Part shown: one piece after another, positions 4,064 to 19,039 of the stretch
Layout: the number at the start of each line of letters is the position of its first letter
How positions within the stretch are numbered: position 1 is the stretch's first letter
IMG/VR virus record: IMGVR_UViG_2526164599_000004
Origin: a virus
Lineage: Duplodnaviria > Heunggongvirae > Uroviricota > Caudoviricetes
DNA length: 43,594 nt
Reading direction: 5' to 3' (one strand)
Position numbers and translations under genes: made by a program
Notes under the pieces: model-generated
Told to the model about the DNA's origin: nothing
What the model saw: only the letters and a program-made list of their open reading frames with translations
Database searches by the model: none

Positions 4064-4678
4064 TTATCTAAAAGTCTTTCCACTTTTAACGTCTAGGTAT
4101 ATTCTGTTCGACAACGTCATTCCTCCGCAATATGTGAAATAGATGTTTTTCCCCTTATTGCTTGATGCCATCCACCCTCCGATTTCCTTAAAGTCGCTTT
4201 CCGTGCAGACCCCTTCGTTTATTAACTTCCTAGCTGCCGAAGAAAACTCTTTTTTGTATATACGGTAGTCATCAGATCCTTTGATTAAAGTATCATCTCC
4301 GCTCGCATTTTCAGCAGGATCTGATGGCCTTTCACTGCTAAGATCACTAAGTTTAACCCATTCTGAAAACTTGCCATTGACGATTCCGTTTTTTCTTGTG
4401 CAGGATTTATTACCTTCTTTAATATATTCGCTTTCCCCTCCCACACATGAGGCTGAATATGGCTCAGTTATACGAACCCATTCACCTTTTTTTTCTAGAA
4501 AATCTACGCCTTCCCTGAAAAATAGTTTCCCAGCCACTCCGCATTTACTTGAAGGGCAGGTATGTCTTTCCGTTCGATCAACAACAACCCAAAGTCTTGA
4601 TTCATTTTTTGCCATTGCCGATGGTATTTGAGATGAGACAATTAACGTAAGCCCTAAAATTAGTATTGATTTTTTCAT
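4064..4678 (-). CDS. Secreted cysteine-rich protein of unknown function (204 aa)
   Basis: N-terminal signal peptide (MKKSILILGLTLIVSSQIPSAMA|K), several Cys, AT-rich flanks with own terminator; not a lambda gene I recognise. Confidence 0.6.
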   Translation of the reverse strand: MKKSILILGLTLIVSSQIPSAMAKNESRLWVVVDRTERHTCPSSKCGVAGKLFFREGVDFLEKKGEWVRITEPYSASCVGGESEYIKEGNKSCTRKNGIVNGKFSEWVKLSDLSSERPSDPAENASGDDTLIKGSDDYRIYKKEFSSAARKLINEGVCTESDFKEIGGWMASSNKGKNIYFTYCGGMTLSNRIYLDVKSGKTFR

Positions 4679-4814: not shown

Positions 4815-5228
4815 CTAATTACATGGTACGTAAGCGTAAAATCCCGTTGGTTGTCGGGTAATAACTCTGATCAAATCTCCCTTGTCTTTTGCTCTTACGT
4901 ATGCAGCTCTTGTGTATTCAACCCAGGCCTCCAGTTCAGCAATACGCTTACTTCCATCCGAGATAACACCTTCTACTCACGCTGCTCGTTGAGTTTTGAT
5001 TTTTGCTGTCTCCAGCTCAACACGCAGTTTCCTCACCGTTAGCGCAATATCCTCGTTCTCCTGGTCGCGGCGTTTGATGTACTGCTGGTTTCTTTCCCGT
5101 TCATCCAGCAGTGTCAGCACAATCGATGGTGTTACCAGCTCATGGAAAAGGTCCGCGTCAAATCCCCAGTTGTCATGCATTGCCTGCTCTGCCGCTTCAC
5201 GCAGTGCCTGAGAGTGAATTACGCTCAC
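4815..5228 (-). pseudogene. ea22: ea22-like gene interrupted by an in-frame TGA (83-aa N-terminal ORF 4977-5228 plus 53 in-frame codons)
   Basis: N-terminus MS.I.SQALREAAEQAMHD.WGFDADLFHELVTPSIVL... matches lambda Ea22 as recalled; TGA at 4977-4979, then in-frame EGVISDGSKRIAELE... continuing to TAG at 4815-4817. Confidence 0.5.
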
Positions 5229-5446
5229 TTCGAACCTCTCTGTTTACTGATAAGTTCCAGATCCTCCTGGCAACTTGCACAAGTCCGACAACCCTGAACG
5301 GCCAGGCGTCTTCGTTCATCTATCGGATCGCCACACTCACAACAATGAGTGGCAGATATAGCCTGGTGGTTCAGGCGGCGCATTTTTATTGCTGTGTTGC
5401 GCTGTAATTCTTCAATTTCTGATGCTGAATCAATGATGTCTGCCAT
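5225..5446 (-). CDS. TraR/DksA-family C4 zinc-finger protein
   Basis: 73 aa with CxxC...CxxC motif (CCECGDPIDERRRLAVQGCRTCASC); stop overlaps the ea22-like start. Confidence 0.6.
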   Translation of the reverse strand: MADIIDSASEIEELQRNTAIKMRRLNHQAISATHCCECGDPIDERRRLAVQGCRTCASCQEDLELISKQRGSK

Positions 5447-5544
5447 CTTTCATTAATCCCTGAATTGTTGGTTAATACGCTTGAGGGTGAATGCGAATAA
5501 TAAAAAAGGAGCCTGTAGCTCCCTGATGATTTTGCTTTTCATGT

Positions 5545-5760
5545 TCACCGTTCCTTAAAAACGCCGTTTAACATGCCGATTGCTAGGCTTAAATGAGTCG
5601 GTGTGAATCCCATCAGCGTTACCGTTTCGCGGTGCTTCTTCAGTACGCTACGGCAAATGTCATCGACGTTTTTATCCGGAAACTGCTGTCTGGCTTTTTT
5701 GATTTCAGAATTAGCCTGACGGGCAATGCTGCGAAGGGCGTTTTCCTGCTGAGGTGTCAC
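5545..5760 (-). CDS. Hypothetical protein (71 aa from a GTG start; ORF track gives a 93-aa form starting at 5826)
   Basis: GTG at 5758-5760 overlaps the TGA of the upstream small peptide ORF (GTGA coupling); the ATG at 5826 has no obvious ribosome-binding site. Confidence 0.4.
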   Translation of the reverse strand: MTPQQENALRSIARQANSEIKKARQQFPDKNVDDICRSVLKKHRETVTLMGFTPTHLSLAIGMLNGVFKER

Positions 5761-5840
5761 TGAACAAGCCCCATGTCGGCAAGCATAAGCACACAGAATA
5801 TGAAGCCCGCTGCCAGAAAAATGCATTCAGTGGTTGTCAT
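5757..5840 (-). CDS. Candidate 27-aa hydrophobic peptide (MTTTECIFLAAGFIFCVLMLADMGLVQ)
   Basis: ATG overlaps the orf63-like stop (ATGA) and its TGA overlaps the next GTG start; one predicted transmembrane-like stretch; purine-rich GAGAGA upstream. Confidence 0.3.
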   Translation of the reverse strand: MTTTECIFLAAGFIFCVLMLADMGLVQ

Positions 5841-6028
5841 ACCTGGTCTCTCTCATCTGCTTCTGCTTTCGCCACCATCATTTCCAGTTTTTGTGAAAGG
5901 GATGTGGCTAACGTATGAAATTCTTCGTCTGTTTCTACTGGTATTGGCACAAACCTGATTCCAATTTGAGCAAGGCTATGTGCCATCTCGATACTCGTTC
6001 TTAACTCAACAGGAGATGCTTTGTGCAT
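5837..6028 (-). CDS. Lambda orf63-like hypothetical protein
   Basis: 63-aa ORF overlapping orf60a by 28 nt, the same overlap geometry as lambda orf63/orf60a. Confidence 0.6.
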   Translation of the reverse strand: MHKASPVELRTSIEMAHSLAQIGIRFVPIPVETDEEFHTLATSLSQKLEMMVAKAEADERDQV

Positions 6029-6183
6029 ACAGCCCCTCGTTTATTATTTATCTCCTCAGCCAGCCGCTGTGCTTTCAGTGGATTTCGGATAACAGAAAGG
6101 CCGGGAAATACCCAGCCTCGCTTTGTAACGGAGTAGACGAAAGTGATTGCGCCTACCCGGATATTATCGTGAGGATGCGTCAT
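6001..6183 (-). CDS. Lambda orf60a-like hypothetical protein
   Basis: 60 aa from [19 protein letters not shown]...; lies immediately downstream of exo as in lambda. Confidence 0.6.
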
Positions 6184-6860
6184 CGCCATTGCTCCCCAAA
6201 TACAAAACCAATTTCAGCCAGTGCCTCGTCCATTTTTTCGATGAACTCCGGCACCATCTCGTCAAAACTCGCCATGTACTTTTCATCCCGCTCAACCACG
6301 ACATAATGCAGTCCTTCACGCTTCATACGCGGGTCATAGTTGGCAAAGTACCAGGCATCTTTACGTGTCACCCACATGCTGTACTGCACCTGGGCCATGT
6401 AAGCCGACTTTATGGCCTCGAAACCACCGAGCCGGAACTTCATGAAATCCCGGGAGGTAAACGGGCATTTCAGCTCAAGGCCATTGCCGTCACTGCATAA
6501 ACCATCGGGAGAGCAGGCGGTGCGCATACTTTCGTCGCGATAGATGATCGGGGATTCAGTAACATTCACGCCGGAAGTGAATTCAAACAGGGTTCTGGCG
6601 TCGTTCTCGTACTGTTTTCCCCAGGCCAGCGCCTTAGCATTAACTTCCGGAGCCACACCGGTGCAAACCTCAGCCAGCAGGGTGTGGAAGTAGGACATTT
6701 TCATGTCAGGCCACTTCTTTCCTGAGCGGGGCTTTGCTATCACGTTGTGAACTTCTGAAGCGGTGATGACGCCGAGCCGTAATTTGTGCCATGCATCATC
6801 CCCCTGTTCGACAGCTCTCACGTCGATCCCGGTACGCTGCAGGATAATGTCCGGTGTCAT
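6180..6860 (-). CDS. exo: Lambda exonuclease (Red alpha)
   Basis: 226-aa ORF matching lambda Exo ([30 protein letters not shown]...). Confidence 0.95.
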
Positions 6861-7642
6861 GCTGCCACCTTCTGCTCAGTGGCTTTCTGTTTCAGGAATC
6901 CGAGAGCTTTCACTGCTTCGACCTGTGTCAGTTCTGACGATGCGCGAATGTCGCGGCGAAATATCTGGGAACAGAGCGGCAATAAGTCGTCATCCCATGT
7001 TTTATCCAGGGCAATCAGCAGAGTGTTAATCTCCTGCATGGTTTCATCGTTAACCGGAGTGATGTCGCGTTCCGGCTGACGTTCTGCAGTGTATGCGGTA
7101 TTTTCGACAATGCGCTCGGCTTCATCCTTGTCATAGATACCAGCAAATCCGAAGGCCAGACGGGCACACTGAATCATGGCTTTATGACGTAACATCCGTT
7201 TGGGATGCGACTGCCACGGCCCCGTGATTTCTCTGCCTTCGCGGGTTTTGAATGGTTCGCGGCGGCATTCATCCATCCACTCGGTAACGCAGATCGGATG
7301 ATTACGGTCCTTGCGGTAAATCCGGCATGTGCAGGATTCATTGTCCTGCTCAAAGTCCATGCCATCAAACTGCTGGTTTTCATTGATGATACGGGACCAG
7401 CCATCAACGCCCACCACCGGAACGATGCCGTTCTGCTTGTCAGGGAAGGCGTAAATTTCTTTCGTCCACGGATTAAGGCCGTACTGGTTGGCGACGATCA
7501 ACAATGCGATGAACTGCGCATCGCTGGCATCGCCTTTAAATGCCGTCTGGCGAAGAGTGGTGATCAGTTCCTGTGGGTCGACAGAATCCATGCCGACACG
7601 TTCAGCCAGCTTCCCAGCCAGCGTTGCGAGTGCTGTACTCAT
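6857..7642 (-). CDS. bet: Lambda Bet (Red beta single-strand annealing protein)
   Basis: 261-aa ORF matching lambda Bet; overlaps exo start. Confidence 0.95.
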
Positions 7643-8045: not shown

Positions 8046-10012
<1,967 letters not shown>

Positions 10013-10069: not shown

Positions 10070-10193
10070 TCATGGCTGAACTCCTGAAATAGCTGTGAAA
10101 ATATCGCCCGCGAAATGCCAGGCTGATTAGGAAAACAGGAAAGGGGGTTAGTGAATGCTTTTGCTTGATCTCAGTTTCAGCATTAATATCCAT
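10070..10193 (-). pseudogene. gam: gam 5' fragment (first 41 codons, [24 protein letters not shown]...)
   Basis: Matches the lambda Gam N-terminus; separated from the rest of gam by the IS21-family element. Confidence 0.8.
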
Positions 10194-10291
10194 TTTTTAT
10201 AAGCGTCGACGGCTTCACGAAACATCTTTTCATCGCCAATAAAAGTGGCGATAGTGAATTTAGTCTGGATAGCCATAAGTGTTTGATCCAT
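10148..10291 (-). CDS. kil: Lambda Kil
   Basis: 47 aa [46 protein letters not shown]; 3' end overlaps the gam start as in lambda. Confidence 0.85.
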
Positions 10292-10424
10292 TCTTTGGGA
10301 CTCCTGGCTGATTAAGTATGTCGATAAGGCGTTTCCATCCGTCACGTAATTTACGGGTGATTCGTTCAAGTAAAGATTCGGAAGGGCAGCCAGCAACAGG
10401 CCACCCTGCAATGGCATATTGCAT
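10260..10424 (-). CDS. cIII: Lambda CIII (FtsH inhibitor)
   Basis: Hand-translated 54 aa [54 protein letters not shown]; below the ORF-track cutoff. Confidence 0.85.
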   Translation of the reverse strand: MQYAIAGWPVAGCPSESLLERITRKLRDGWKRLIDILNQPGVPKNGSNTYGYPD

Positions 10425-10496
10425 GGTGTGCTCCTTATTTATACATAACGAAAAACGCCTCGAGTGAAGCGTTATTGGTATGCGGTAACGCAGCGC

Positions 10497-17176: not shown

Positions 17177-17463
17177 CGGGCAAAGAGGCAATTATTCATT
17201 ACCTGGGGACGCATAATAGCTTCTGTGCGCCGGACGTTGCCGCGCTAACAGGCGCAACAGTAACCAGCATAAATCAGGCCGCGGCTAAAATGGCACGGGC
17301 AGGTCTTCTGGTTATCGAAGGTAAGGTCTGGCGAACGGTGTATTACCGGTTTGCTACCAGGGAAGAACGGGAAGGAAAGATGAGCACGAACCTGATTTTT
17401 AAGGAGTGTCGCCAGAGTGCCGCGATGAAACGGGTATTGGCGGTATATGGAGTTAAAAGATGA
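17173..17463 (+). CDS. ren: Lambda Ren
   Basis: 96-aa ORF matching lambda Ren. Confidence 0.9.
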   Translation: MTGKEAIIHYLGTHNSFCAPDVAALTGATVTSINQAAAKMARAGLLVIEGKVWRTVYYRFATREEREGKMSTNLIFKECRQSAAMKRVLAVYGVKR

Positions 17464-17536
17464 CCATCTACATCACTGAGCTAATAACAGGCCTGCTGGT
17501 AATCGCAGGCCTTTTTATTTGGGGGAGAGGGAAGTC

Positions 17537-17783
17537 ATGAAAAAACTAACCTTTGAAATTCGATCTCCAGCACATCAGCAAAACGCTATTCACGCAGTAC
17601 AGCAAATTCTTCCAGACCCAACCAAACCAATCGTAGTAACCATTCAGGAACGCAACCGCAGCTTAGACCAAAACCGAAAGCTTTGGGCTTGCCTTGGTGA
17701 CGTTTCGCGTCAGGTTGAATGGCATGGTCGCTGGCTGGATGCAGAAAGCTGGAAGTGTGTGTTTACCGCAGCATTAAAGCAGC
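17537..17783 (+). pseudogene. ninB: ninB 5' fragment (first about 82 codons) truncated by IS629
   Basis: MKKLTFEIRSPAHQQNAIHAVQQILPDP...FTAALKQ matches the lambda NinB N-terminus; the frame runs into the IS inverted repeat at 17784. Confidence 0.85.
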
Positions 17784-17825: not shown

Positions 17826-18716
17826 TCAGGCTGCCAGATCATCGTTTCCGATGGAAGCATAATAAGCTTTTTCTGCTTCTGCCGGTGGGATATGGCCCAG
17901 CCTTTCCAGCAATCGTCGATTGTTATACCAGTCCACCCACGTGAGTGTGGCCAGCTCCACTTCTGTCCGGTTTTTCCAGCTCTTACGGTGTATTACCTCC
18001 GCTTTGTAAAGGCCATTGATGCTCTCCGCCATCGCGTTGTCATACGAGTCACCAGTACTTCCTGTTGATGCCAGTAATCCGGCTTCCTTAAGCCGCTGTG
18101 TGTAGGCCAGCGATACATACTGAGAACCTTTATCACTGTGATGGACTGTGCCGGACGGTCGACGGGCCCATAACGCCTGCTCCAGAGCATCCAGCACGAA
18201 TGTCGTTTCCATAGACGATGAGACCCGCCACCCCACGATGTATCCGGCAAACACATCAATGATGAACGCCACATAGACGACCCCCTGCCATGTGCTGACG
18301 TAAGTAAAATCAGCCACCCACAACTGGTCAGGACGTTCTGCCACAAACTGACGGTTTACGCGGTCGCCTGCGGCAACGGCTTTCCGGCTGACGGTAGTGC
18401 GGACCTTTTTACCCCGGAGAACACCGGCAAGTCCCATAACCGCCATGAGGCGCGCCACTGTACATCTGGCTACCCTGATTCCTTCCCGTAACAACTGACG
18501 CCAGACTTTACGCACACCGTATACCTGATGATTCCCATCGTATACGCGCAGTATCTCTTTCTTCAGCCAGTCATCGCGCTGCGCACGGGCACTGCGTTTA
18601 TCAGGATGATGTCGCTGTTGCTGACAGTGGTAATACGTTGACGGGGCAATATGTAGTTCACTGCATACCGGTCCGACCCCGTACAGCTTACGCAGCTTAT
18701 CCAGCAGTGGCATCAC
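17826..18716 (-). CDS. IS629 transposase OrfB
   Basis: 296 aa, integrase catalytic core; recalled as IS629/IS1203 OrfB. Confidence 0.85.
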
Positions 18717-19039
18717 TTTTTCCAGAGGCGGTCGAACTCCGCCTTCGCAAAATAAGCGGAAGCCTGGCGAAGGATATCGTTACTGCGGCGCAGTTCACGA
18801 TTTTCACGTTCCAGCTCTTTCAGACGCTGACGTTCAGCGGTGGTGAGCCCGCCATCACCGCCTCCGGTATCCCGCTCATGCTGGCGTACCCAGACACGCA
18901 GAGTCTCCGGTGTACAGTCAATCTTTGGGGCAATGGAACAAATTGCCGCCCACTGTGAGTCATATTCGCCCTGACTTTCCAGAACCATACGAATCGCCCT
19001 CTGACGGACTTCGGGGGAAAAACGAGTATTTTTAGTCAT
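18713..19039 (-). CDS. IS629 OrfA (HTH)
   Basis: 108 aa [26 protein letters not shown]...; lies upstream of and overlapping orfB, the usual IS3-family arrangement. Confidence 0.85.

What the first reader, a model, noticed from the sequence alone, without database searches (positions are those of the whole stretch)
5757..5840. Candidate 27-aa hydrophobic peptide translationally coupled between two small early genes
MTTTECIFLAAGFIFCVLMLADMGLVQ has one transmembrane-like stretch. Its ATG overlaps the upstream stop (ATGA) and its TGA overlaps the next GTG start (GTGA), a tight coupling chain in the pL operon. It competes with the 93-aa reading of the next gene, whose ATG lacks a ribosome-binding site. 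Small membrane peptides in this operon are often host-toxic or regulatory, like Kil.
Basis: inference. Interest (0 to 1): 0.4.

Follow-up and report, generated by a model that had tools for sequence, protein, structure and literature searches.

The report
Hidden small membrane-peptide gene in lambda
A 27-codon reading frame wedged between two small early genes of lambda-like phages evolves like a real gene for a tiny membrane-spanning peptide, yet standard annotation misses it because it reads the same DNA as the start of the next gene.

Summary
It lies in the exo-xis block of the pL operon of a lambda-like E. coli prophage.

I compared 315 related loci (127 distinct haplotypes). Every common nucleotide polymorphism inside the ORF is silent in the peptide frame. 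The same changes alter amino acids in the competing 93-aa 'orf61' frame. For variants seen in at least 2 haplotypes the split is 10 synonymous to 5 non-synonymous, against 27% synonymous expected (p=0.0015). The 93-aa frame shows no excess.

Two natural mosaics place recombination junctions at the peptide's ATG and at the 71-aa start of orf61. So orf61 is really 71 aa, and the 84-nt 'gap' upstream is a separate gene.

The peptide is very hydrophobic, with one membrane-spanning-like stretch, and matches no known family. It is absent from the lambda, 933W, 434 and RefSeq E. coli annotations. It is only sporadically auto-called 'hypothetical protein', although the region sits in 58% of complete E. 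coli genomes.

Translation and function are untested. Published Δorf61 mutants also removed this ORF.

Verdict: a probable real, undescribed small membrane-protein gene, a new member of a known kind. Interest is moderate.

The parts
5757..5840 (-). 27-codon ORF ('pep27'), MTTTECIFLAAGFIFCVLMLADMGLVQ. Predicted single-pass small membrane peptide. Equivalent to lambda NC_001416 complement(30925..31008).
   Evidence: The ORF is. It is intact in 292 of 296 loci, and the amino-acid sequence is identical in 250 of 296. Synonymous changes are in excess in this frame only. Hydrophobicity is in the top 1% of small ORFs in the window.
5837..5840 (-). ATGA overlap: the stop codon of orf63 and the start codon of pep27.
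   Evidence: The same ATGA overlap is kept where a DNA methyltransferase gene replaces orf63 (L193).
5848..5854 (-). GAGAGAG, a weak-to-moderate Shine-Dalgarno-like stretch 8-14 nt upstream of the pep27 ATG.
   Evidence: The duplex with the 16S 3' tail is -5.6 kcal/mol (background median -2.6; orf73, a gene known to be expressed, scores -4.9). In the mosaic L193 the equivalent position holds GGGAGG, at -10.3 kcal/mol.
5757..5760 (-). GTGA overlap: the stop of pep27 and the start of the 71-aa orf61. The start is ATG in lambda and in 249 of 296 loci, and GTG here and in 47 of 296.
5545..5760 (-). orf61 read as 71 aa (V/M-TPQQENALRS...), the downstream partner in the coupling chain.
   Evidence: Databases hold 71-aa forms annotated by PGAP. 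Phage 434 is annotated from this start. In mosaic L029 the gene begins at this ATG behind a GAGG, with unrelated DNA upstream. Purifying selection is strong (17 S: 8 N among common variants, p=5e-5). In the AlphaFold2 model, mean pLDDT by 10-residue block is 74-89 for residues 21-90.
5761..5826 (-). The 22-codon N-terminal extension of the annotated 93-aa reading of orf61. It overlaps pep27 in another frame and is judged not to be under protein-level selection.
   Evidence: In this frame common variants split 1 S: 5 N (at least 3 haplotypes) and 0 S: 3 N (at least 5 haplotypes), and pN exceeds pS in 4 of 5 pairwise comparisons. The extension is absent in L029, L030 and the 71-aa forms. Mean pLDDT is 44 and 60 for residue blocks 1-10 and 11-20. 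The SD is weak and misplaced. The frame is nevertheless open, with its ATG, in all 296 loci.
5837..6028 (-). orf63 (DUF1382), the upstream partner in the coupling chain.
   Evidence: Pfam PF07131, E=3e-31. Annotated in lambda.
5453..5548 (-). A 31-aa ORF whose GTG overlaps the orf61 stop (GTGA). An ATG lies 6 nt further on. This is the next link of the chain.
   Evidence: The length matches the 31-aa 'orf2313' that a review attributes to lambda ribosome profiling. The equation rests on length and place only.
6001..6189 (-). orf60a (DUF1317), the first gene of the packed block. It overlaps orf63 by 28 nt.

Best explanation
The 84-nt stretch between orf63 and orf61 is a separate protein-coding gene for a 27-residue, single-helix inner-membrane peptide. 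It is not the N-terminus of a 93-aa Orf61.

Proposed mechanism:
- The gene is transcribed with the delayed-early pL operon.
- A ribosome that terminates orf63 at TGA restarts on the overlapping ATG, helped by a modest SD.
- A ribosome that terminates the peptide at TGA restarts on the overlapping ATG/GTG of the 71-aa orf61. The three products are therefore made in a linked ratio.
- At 27 residues the peptide is finished before it leaves the ribosome tunnel, so it must enter the membrane after translation, as other bacterial micro-proteins do.

Shown here: the anatomy, frame-specific purifying selection, gene-boundary behaviour in mosaics, and hydrophobic character.

Inferred: translation, membrane location, and function. 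My best guess for function (about 0.35) is a trans-acting membrane micro-protein. It would bind or perturb a host inner-membrane component early in lytic growth. It would then contribute to the pro-lytic and host-physiology effects now credited to 'orf61' or to the exo-xis block.
For: 1. Selection, by locus counts. In 315 loci (127 haplotypes), all variants present in more than 10 loci are at codon position 3 of the peptide frame and are silent. One site carries 3 alleles and another carries 4. Summed allele counts are S/N 339/48 in the peptide frame against 26/176 in the 93-aa frame.
2. Selection, by haplotype counts. Variants in at least 2 haplotypes split 10 S: 5 N against 27% expected (p=0.0015). 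Variants in at least 3 haplotypes split 8 S: 2 N (p=0.0006). This is as strong as for the orf71 body.
3. Pairwise divergence. pS is 0.11-0.22 with pN=0 in 4 of 5 comparisons.
4. Integrity. There is no indel in 296 loci from 30 nt upstream to 12 nt downstream of the ORF, and the ORF is intact in 292 of 296.
5. Mosaic L193. A methyltransferase gene replaces orf63 up to 3 nt or less before the peptide ATG. The ATGA overlap is kept and a strong GGGAGG SD is present.
6. Mosaic L029. Unrelated DNA replaces orf63 plus the peptide, and orf61 starts at the 71-aa ATG.
7. Start signals. The SD of the peptide ATG is better than that of the 93-aa ATG.
8. No RNA-structure explanation. The fold z-score is +1.29 and there is no Rfam hit in the stretch.
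9. Hydrophobicity ranks 4th of 485 small ORFs. The rare amino-acid variants are mostly compatible with a membrane helix: T3A, D22G, F8L, A21V, V26A.
10. Some pipelines have called exactly this protein: 981 contigs, UniRef A0A0A2SGE8.
11. Circumstantial. Infection with Phi24B lacking exo-xis gives lower degP (log2 -3.0) and htpX (-2.4) than wild type. To my knowledge these are envelope-stress genes. That result maps to the whole region, not to this ORF.
Against: - There is no direct evidence of translation.
- A review of lambda ribosome profiling names only a 7-aa and a 31-aa new ORF in this block. I could not read the original paper or its tables.
- The family is young and narrow (94% nucleotide identity or more, Escherichia/Shigella phages), so the test rests on about 15-30 variable sites.
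- The antisense frame on the plus strand (ORF 5773..5958) shares third positions and shows a weaker 'shadow' excess (8 S: 9 N, p=0.035).
- The 93-aa frame stays open, with its ATG, in all 296 loci.
- The SD is only moderate.
- The peptide has no Lys or Arg, so there is no positive-inside signal, and the summed insertion energy is borderline at about 0.
- PGAP does not call it.
- In this particular window an IS21-family element sits between kil and gam, so pL-driven expression may be impaired here.
Confidence: 0.72

Rival explanations
1. Relay ORF only. The frame is translated, but only so that ribosomes leaving orf63 are delivered to the poorly signalled start of orf61. The peptide itself does nothing.
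For: The 4-nt overlaps at both ends and the weak SD before the orf61 start (-4.7 kcal/mol) fit termination-reinitiation. Where the peptide ORF is absent (L029), orf61 has its own GAGG.
Against: A pure relay needs only an open frame, not a particular amino-acid sequence. Yet non-synonymous changes are held at low frequency (10 loci or fewer of about 300) while silent ones reach 33-99 loci. In addition, 250 of 296 loci encode the identical peptide.
Confidence: 0.12
2. The current annotation is right. Orf61 is 93 aa (61 aa in frameshifted lambda) starting at ATG 5826, and the 27-codon frame is an untranslated alternative frame.
For: The ATG and an open frame are present in all 296 loci. RefSeq 933W and many E. 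coli records annotate 93 aa. PHROG 303 aligns over residues 1-93.
Against: In that frame the changes are non-synonymous (S/N 26/176 by allele counts; T20A in about one third of loci and G7R in 11%) and pN exceeds pS in 4 of 5 pairwise comparisons. The SD is weak and misplaced. The extension is missing in natural 71-aa, 76-aa and mosaic forms. In the AlphaFold2 model, mean pLDDT is 44 and 60 for residue blocks 1-10 and 11-20, and a published model also leaves residues 1-23 out of the fold.
Confidence: 0.06
3. Nothing is encoded. The stretch is a short spacer that looks conserved only because all copies share a recent ancestor, and the silent-site pattern is chance.
For: Overall divergence is low (95-99% identity in 180 phage records). 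Few sites vary. orf63, a protein with a solved structure, itself shows no significant synonymous excess in the same data.
Against: The binomial p is 0.0006-0.0015 in the peptide frame and there is no signal in the other two sense frames. Silent variants are significantly more frequent than replacement variants (Mann-Whitney p=0.004). There are no indels in 296 loci. A mosaic junction falls exactly at the ATG.
Confidence: 0.07
4. The constraint comes from the antisense ORF on the plus strand (5773..5958, 61 aa), whose third codon positions coincide with those of the peptide frame.
For: That frame shows a weaker synonymous excess (8 S: 9 N, p=0.035), and its first 25 residues are identical between lambda and the window.
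Against: Every accepted gene in the block shows the same 'shadow' signal in that antisense frame (orf71 p=0.0004, orf73 p=0.0002), so it is a by-product. Two of the commonest silent sites (window 5769 and 5760) lie outside the antisense ORF. Two changes that are silent in the peptide are Met-to-Ile in the antisense frame. The part of the antisense ORF over orf63 differs by 3 amino acids between lambda and the window, and it is replaced entirely in L193. Promoter-like sites on either strand are no more frequent than chance (1 found against 1.4 expected).
Confidence: 0.03

Closest known systems
Small single-pass inner-membrane proteins of enterobacteria (KdpF 29 aa, AcrZ 49 aa, MgtS 31 aa, MgtR 30 aa, CydX 37 aa), from my own knowledge of the literature
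   Same: The size is under 50 aa, with one hydrophobic helix and few charged residues. KdpF also lacks Lys and Arg. These genes are often missed by annotation and are embedded in or next to operons. They act by binding larger membrane proteins.
   Different: There is no sequence similarity (no hit in Pfam, NCBIfam or PDB). No partner is known. The gene is phage-encoded and expressed only in lytic development. Membrane location is untested.
Other small translated ORFs of the lambda exo-xis block: the 7-aa 'orf2311' and 31-aa 'orf2313' reported from ribosome profiling (Liu et al. 2013, as cited in PMC8614690)
   Same: They sit in the same operon block, have the same tight packing, and are equally absent from the reference annotation. 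The 31-aa ORF is the next-but-one gene (5453..5548).
   Different: This 27-aa ORF is not named in the review. It is hidden under an annotated gene rather than lying in an intergenic gap. For the 31-aa ORF I found no significant synonymous excess, whereas this one has it.
   Same: It is a small, non-essential host-directed product of the same delayed-early operon.
   Different: To my knowledge Kil is not a membrane peptide. The peptide matched no family in Pfam, PHROGs, NCBIfam or PADLOC, so nothing links it to Kil, and I made no direct comparison of the two sequences. Kil lies upstream at about 10148-10290 in this window.
Type I toxins (TisB 29 aa, DinQ 27 aa, ShoB 26 aa, Ibs 18-19 aa), from my own knowledge
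   Same: The length and the strongly hydrophobic helix are similar.
   Different: Type I toxins are stand-alone loci with their own promoter and an antisense RNA, and most carry basic residues. Here the ORF is translationally coupled inside an operon, there is no excess of promoter-like sites, and there is no Lys or Arg.

Membership tests
Genuine protein-coding small ORF | The reading frame is kept intact across relatives. | tested here: met
   292 of 296 loci are intact. There are no indels. 2 loci have ATA in place of ATG, and 2 have Q27stop.
Genuine protein-coding small ORF | Synonymous substitutions are in excess in this frame and not in the overlapping frames. | tested here: met
   10 S: 5 N (at least 2 haplotypes, p=0.0015) and 8 S: 2 N (at least 3 haplotypes, p=0.0006). 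The other sense frames give p above 0.4. pN=0 in 4 of 5 pairwise comparisons.
Genuine protein-coding small ORF | A start codon with a usable ribosome-binding context. | tested here: met
   The ATG overlaps the upstream stop. The SD-like GAGAGAG scores -5.6 kcal/mol (orf73 scores -4.9). In mosaic L193 a GGGAGG scores -10.3.
Genuine protein-coding small ORF | Direct evidence of translation (ribosome footprints, tagged product, mass spectrometry). | not testable with these tools
   Liu et al. 2013 is not held. No paper in the library contains the peptide sequence.
Small single-pass membrane proteins | At most about 50 aa, with one hydrophobic segment long enough to span the bilayer. | tested here: met
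   Residues C6-V26 (21 residues) sum to -0.14 kcal/mol on the Hessa scale. The core C6-A21 sums to -3.4. GRAVY is 1.62.
Small single-pass membrane proteins | Positively charged flank (positive-inside rule). | tested here: not met
   There is no Lys or Arg. The only charged residues are E5 and D22 (sequence). Some accepted members, such as KdpF, also lack them, so this feature is not decisive.
Small single-pass membrane proteins | Membrane localisation and a membrane-protein partner. | not testable with these tools
   This needs fractionation or topology fusions and pull-downs.
Type I toxin-antitoxin | Own promoter plus an antisense or overlapping regulatory RNA. | tested here: not met
   The ORF is coupled inside the operon. 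Only one promoter-like site was found in 1.1 kb, at or below the shuffle expectation of 1.4, and it is about 270 nt away. There is no Rfam hit.
N-terminus of a 93-aa Orf61 (current annotation) | Purifying selection in the 93-aa frame over codons 1-22. | tested here: not met
   S/N is 26/176 by allele counts. pS=0 with pN=0.02-0.04 in 4 of 5 pairs.
N-terminus of a 93-aa Orf61 (current annotation) | The extension is present in all homologues and is part of the fold. | tested here: not met
   71-aa, 76-aa and mosaic forms lack it. Mean pLDDT is 44 and 60 for residue blocks 1-10 and 11-20. A published model excludes residues 1-23.
ZapA (the name PGAP gives to the downstream gene) | A match to Pfam ZapA above threshold, or a ZapA fold. 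| tested here: not met
   PF05164 gives E=0.014 and 16.2 bits against a cut-off of 23.8. Foldseek against PDB finds no match with E below 1 and no ZapA.
Programmed frameshift fusion (Orf63-peptide or peptide-Orf61) | A slippery heptamer or a prfB-like shift site at the junction. | tested here: not met
   No X XXY YYZ motif precedes either overlap. The 89-aa Orf63-peptide fusions in databases arise from different 1-nt deletions and occur alongside fusions into the other frames.

The most novel reading that the evidence does not exclude
The peptide, not Orf61, is the active product behind the phenotypes reported for lambda Δorf61 (more lysogens, higher host survival). Laboratory lambda carries a frameshifted orf61 but an intact peptide ORF, and the published deletion removed both.

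A 27-residue membrane micro-protein could bias the lysis-lysogeny decision from within the inner membrane. One route would be modulation of the FtsH/HflKC protease that degrades CII, as the membrane peptide MgtR steers FtsH in Salmonella. Another would be a contribution to the 'bin' block of host replication initiation that was mapped to this gene cluster.
Probability: 0.1. Interest if true: 0.72.

Novelty: new member of a known kind. Interest (0 to 1): 0.45.

Why it matters
Lambda is the best-annotated temperate phage. Its exo-xis block is a long-standing puzzle: it is conserved and expressed early, it affects lysogeny, prophage induction and host replication, and yet it is dispensable in the laboratory.

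If this ORF is real, four things follow:
1. The block contains one more gene than every functional study has assumed.
2. orf61 is mis-annotated. It should be 71 aa, not 93 or 61 aa, and the laboratory lambda copy is a frameshifted pseudogene.
3. The published Δorf61 phenotypes in lambda and in the Shiga-toxin phage Phi24B cannot be assigned to Orf61 alone, because the deletions also removed this ORF.
4. A membrane-active product would offer a lead for the envelope-stress signature that depends on the exo-xis region.

The region is present in 3,142 of 5,426 complete E. coli genomes and in most Stx phages. The gene is therefore very common and essentially unnamed.

Tried and rejected
Family and structure searches with no result:
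- Pfam, PHROGs, NCBIfam, PADLOC and PDB sequence searches with the peptide gave nothing significant.
- The large protein homology search refuses queries under 40 aa, and the structure predictor needs at least 30 aa.
- The genome-contig scan with Orf61 returned mainly lambda DNA contaminating unrelated assemblies. It gave no distant relatives.
- blastn in 'distant' mode found nothing below about 95% identity, so deep comparative tests are impossible.

Synteny at greater distance:
- I looked for a conserved small hydrophobic ORF after more divergent DUF1382 genes (75-81% identity). Those are followed directly by Ea22-like or DUF4222 genes with no peptide and no orf61. The peptide therefore travels with orf61, not with orf63.

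Explanations considered and dropped:
- An RNA-structure explanation was rejected (z=+1.29; no Rfam hit).
- Programmed frameshifting was rejected because there is no slippery site.
- The Orf63-peptide fusion proteins in databases were rejected as evidence. They come from various 1-nt deletions, and fusions into the other frames are equally present.
- The 'ZapA' label of the neighbouring gene was rejected.

Literature:
- The primary ribosome-profiling paper could not be read.
- Literature searches for the peptide sequence, and for small membrane proteins of the exo-xis region, found nothing.
Full report
WHAT IS THERE

The window is a lambda-like E. coli prophage. Positions 5400-6200 are 98.4-98.5% identical to phage lambda, and 180 phage records match at 95-99%.

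On the minus strand the genes run as follows:

| Gene | Coordinates |
|---|---|
| bet | 6857-7642 |
| exo | 6180-6860 |
| orf60a | 6001-6189 |
| orf63 | 5837-6028 |
| the 27-codon ORF | 5757-5840 |
| 'orf61' | 5545-5826 as 93 aa, or 5545-5760 as 71 aa |
| a 31-aa ORF | 5453-5548 |
| orf73, a TraR homologue | 5225-5446 |
| an Ea22-like ORF | 4977-5228 |

This is the 'exo-xis' block of the pL operon. The cIII thermoregulator lies at 10379-10437 on the same strand.

The first is GTATGA, the orf63 stop with the peptide ATG. The second is CAGTGACA, the peptide stop with a GTG in frame with orf61.

HOW THE DATABASES READ THIS DNA

- RefSeq lambda annotates orf61 as a 61-aa protein that starts 20 nt inside orf63.
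- 933W annotates a 93-aa 'cell division protein ZapA'.
- The phage 434 record starts the gene at the position of the window's GTG, giving 71 aa.
- PGAP in RefSeq E. coli uses either 93 or 71 aa.
- None of the phage or RefSeq E. coli records I inspected annotates the 27-aa ORF.
- An exact look-up shows that some pipelines have called it. The sequence is recorded as a 'hypothetical protein' of E. coli on 981 contigs, with UniRef entry A0A0A2SGE8.
- No paper in the searchable library contains the peptide sequence.
- A review of the region says lambda ribosome profiling added a 7-aa and a 31-aa ORF to this block, and does not mention this one. I could not obtain the primary paper.

LAMBDA VERSUS THE WINDOW

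The pairwise alignment already gives the answer in miniature.
- Three nucleotides differ inside the 84-nt ORF. All three are silent in the peptide frame (ACT/ACG, GGG/GGA, CAG/CAA).
- In the orf61 frame the same three changes give a stop/Gly change upstream of the ATG, an Ala/Thr change, and a Val/Met change.
- The last of these is the start codon of the 71-aa form. It is ATG in lambda and GTG here.
- Lambda also has one extra A in an A-run (window 5695-5700), which frameshifts orf61. Only the laboratory-lambda lineage has this insertion: 22 of 311 loci.

POPULATION TEST

I collected 315 related loci. The searches used flanking genes or flanking DNA as bait, not the peptide (and the annotated records). 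I anchored each locus to the window by blastn.

- Over orf63 to orf61 there are 127 distinct haplotypes.
- Inside the peptide ORF, every variant present in more than 10 loci lies at codon position 3 of the peptide frame and is silent. One such site has three alleles and another has four.
- These same sites are codon position 1 of the 93-aa frame.
- Summed allele counts are S/N 339/48 in the peptide frame and 26/176 in the 93-aa frame. Silent variants are significantly more frequent than replacement variants in the peptide frame (Mann-Whitney p=0.004) but not in the 93-aa frame (p=0.53).

Each (site, allele) was then counted once, and only if seen in several distinct haplotypes:

| Region and frame | Haplotype threshold | S : N | Expected synonymous | p |
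|---|---|---|---|---|
| Peptide ORF, peptide frame | at least 2 | 10 : 5 | 27% | 0.0015 |
| Peptide ORF, peptide frame | at least 3 | 8 : 2 | 26% | 0.0006 |
| Same nucleotides, 93-aa frame | at least 2 | 3 : 7 | 32% | 0.66 |
| Same nucleotides, 93-aa frame | at least 3 | 1 : 5 | 32% | 0.9 |
| orf71 body, own frame | at least 2 | 15 : 10 | 29% | 0.0013 |
| orf71 body, own frame | at least 3 | 14 : 6 | 29% | 0.00016 |

The peptide's signal is as strong as that of the accepted orf71 body. Nei-Gojobori pairwise values agree. For the peptide, pS is 0.11-0.22 with pN=0 in four of five comparisons. For the 93-aa extension, pS=0 with pN=0.02-0.04 in four of five.

At the protein level:
- 250 of 296 loci encode the identical peptide.
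- No other peptide variant exceeds 10 loci.
- The ORF is intact in 292 of 296 loci, and there are no indels in or around it.
- The 22-residue extension of the 93-aa reading has three common protein variants, in 157, 79 and 33 loci.

A CAVEAT THAT I CHECKED

The plus-strand ORF 5773..5958 shares its third codon positions with the peptide frame, so many changes are silent in both. That frame shows a weaker excess (8 S: 9 N, p=0.035).

Several observations make it a by-product rather than the source of constraint:
- The same 'shadow' appears antisense to every accepted gene in the block (orf71 p=0.0004; orf73 p=0.0002).
- Two of the commonest silent sites (5769, 5760) lie outside the antisense ORF.
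- Two changes that are silent in the peptide are Met-to-Ile in the antisense frame.
- The rest of the antisense ORF is not conserved.
- Promoter-like sites are no more frequent than chance.

An RNA-structure explanation also fails. The stretch folds less well than shuffled versions (z=+1.29) and has no Rfam match.

MOSAIC VARIANTS

Lambdoid phages recombine mostly at gene borders (established knowledge). Two natural mosaics bracket the peptide ORF.

1. E. coli A36 (L193). A DNA adenine methyltransferase gene replaces orf63. Homology to the window begins 3 nt or less before the peptide ATG. The new upstream gene again ends in ATGA. A strong GGGAGG (-10.3 kcal/mol) precedes the ATG.
2. L029. An unrelated 250-aa gene replaces orf63 and the peptide. 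orf61 begins at the ATG that corresponds to the window's GTG, behind a GAGG. Homology resumes at about codon 7.

A 71-aa form with a divergent N-terminus is common (344 member sequences).

More distant DUF1382 (orf63) genes are followed by other genes, with neither the peptide nor orf61. In all 296 loci that contain the peptide ORF, orf61 follows it. The units are therefore [orf63], [peptide] and [orf61, 71 aa], and the peptide travels with orf61.

OTHER SUPPORT FOR THE 71-AA START

- AlphaFold2 on the 93-aa sequence gives mean pLDDT of 44 and 60 for residue blocks 1-10 and 11-20. Blocks covering residues 21-90 give 74-89.
- A published model likewise drops residues 1-23.
- The SD before the 93-aa ATG is weak and misplaced (-3.8 kcal/mol). 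The peptide ATG scores -5.6, comparable to orf73 at -4.9, a protein known to be made.
- The 'ZapA' name for orf61 is not supported. The Pfam score is below threshold and there is no PDB fold match.

THE PEPTIDE

- The sequence is MTTTECIFLAAGFIFCVLMLADMGLVQ.
- It has a 16-residue apolar core (C6-A21), which extends to 21 residues through V26 with D22 inside it.
- It has two Cys, E5 and D22, and no basic residue.
- It is among the four most hydrophobic of 485 small ORFs in the window. Its summed insertion energy is about zero, which is borderline but compatible with a membrane helix.
- D22 is not invariant. D22G occurs in 8-9 loci and gives an unbroken 21-residue apolar stretch.
- It matches no family or solved structure.

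HOW IT MOST LIKELY WORKS

Shown: a frame-specific constraint on the amino-acid sequence, gene-boundary behaviour in mosaics, start and stop codons that overlap the neighbours' stop and start, and strong hydrophobicity.

Inferred:
- Ribosomes finishing orf63 restart on the overlapping ATG.
- Ribosomes finishing the peptide restart on orf61, so the three products are made in a linked ratio.
- The 27-residue product is released before it emerges from the ribosome and inserts into the inner membrane after translation.
- There it binds or perturbs a host membrane component during early lytic growth.

I put the first layer (a real, translated gene) at about 0.7. I put the specific trans-acting membrane role at about 0.35.

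A pure 'relay ORF' role is the main rival (0.12). It fits the anatomy but not the amino-acid conservation.

LINKS TO PUBLISHED PHENOTYPES (LEADS, NOT TESTS)

- The Δorf61 mutants of lambda and Phi24B replaced 'the nucleotide sequence of orf61' by an 87-nt scar. That removes all of the peptide ORF in lambda and, by the 93-aa ORF coordinates, 70 of its 84 nt in Phi24B.
- Both mutants gave more lysogens, and the effect was also seen in lambda. Lambda's orf61 is a frameshifted remnant.
- Infection with Phi24B lacking the exo-xis region gives lower degP (log2 -3.0) and htpX (-2.4) than wild type. That would fit a membrane-perturbing product somewhere in the region.
- Polar effects on orf73 and ea22 could explain the same data.

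NOVELTY AND SCORE

Small single-helix membrane proteins hidden in operons are a known kind, and phage genomes are known to hold many unannotated small genes. This one appears undescribed in the literature I could search. It is absent from the reference annotations I inspected. It is present in 58% of complete E. coli genomes. It also changes the reading of a studied gene, orf61.

It is a new member of a known kind. Interest is 0.45: useful and testable, but without a demonstrated product or function.

One local note: in this window an IS21-family element (8046-10012) sits between kil and gam, so this particular copy may not be expressed normally from pL.

Noticed in passing
window 5695-5700 (equivalent to lambda NC_001416 about 30860): Reference lambda has 7 A where the window and 289 of 311 related loci have 6. 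This frameshifts orf61 into the annotated 61-aa product. All 22 loci with 7 A that I could identify are laboratory lambda records or lambda DNA contaminating unrelated genome assemblies. Lambda's orf61 therefore looks like a laboratory-lineage pseudogene of a 71-aa gene.
   Followed up: yes
window 8046-10012 (+): An IS21-family element is inserted antisense into the pL operon between kil/cIII and gam. It encodes IstA-like (390 aa) and IstB (265 aa, PF01695, E=1e-87) proteins. It separates gam-bet-exo and the exo-xis block from pL in this prophage.
   Followed up: partly
window 18642-18758 and 23937-24053 (-): Two ALIL pseudoknot matches with the same score (116.2 bits), the frameshift element of IS3-family transposases. 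They indicate two copies of the same IS about 5.3 kb apart. With the IS21 insertion, this suggests a decaying prophage.
   Followed up: no
window 5453-5548 (-), hairpin 5524-5506: The 31-aa ORF after orf61 contains a terminator-like hairpin plus T-run inside its coding sequence. Its GTG overlaps the orf61 stop (GTGA). It has the length of the 31-aa 'orf2313' reported from lambda ribosome profiling. It shows no significant synonymous excess in my data (5 S : 6 N).
   Followed up: partly
window 5837-6028 (-): orf63 (DUF1382) has a solved NMR structure and published phenotypes. Yet it shows no significant synonymous excess (7 S : 12 N among common variants; pN/pS about 0.4-1 in pairwise comparisons). 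Its neighbours do show one, so selection on it looks relaxed or diversifying.
   Followed up: partly
L193 349-986 (E. coli A36) and L029 741-1716: Two natural mosaics. In L193 a Dam-like methyltransferase replaces orf63 up to the peptide ATG. In L029 a 250-aa gene with no Pfam domain on record replaces orf63 plus the peptide, up to the first codons of the 71-aa orf61.
   Followed up: yes
proteins P0115, P0118, P0122, P0124, P0126, P0134 (89 aa): Database proteins that fuse Orf63 in frame to the 27-aa peptide through different single-base deletions near the ATGA junction. Fusions into the other two frames also exist (P0117, P0004). They probably reflect sequencing errors or decaying prophages rather than biology.
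   Followed up: partly
window 4064-4678 (-): A 204-aa ORF with a signal-peptide-like N-terminus (MKKSILILGLTLIVSSQIPSAMA) and no Pfam match lies just downstream of the truncated Ea22-like ORF. It may be a secreted accessory ('moron') protein.
   Followed up: no
window 17460-17540 (+): Another very hydrophobic small ORF (26 aa, MTIYITELITGLLVIAGLFIWGRGKS) with a basic C-terminal tail. It ranks among the five most membrane-helix-like small ORFs of the window.
   Followed up: no
window 5545-5760 (-): The PGAP name 'cell division protein ZapA' for the orf61 product is not supported. Pfam ZapA scores 16.2 bits against a cut-off of 23.8. The AlphaFold2 model has no PDB match with E below 1.
   Followed up: yes
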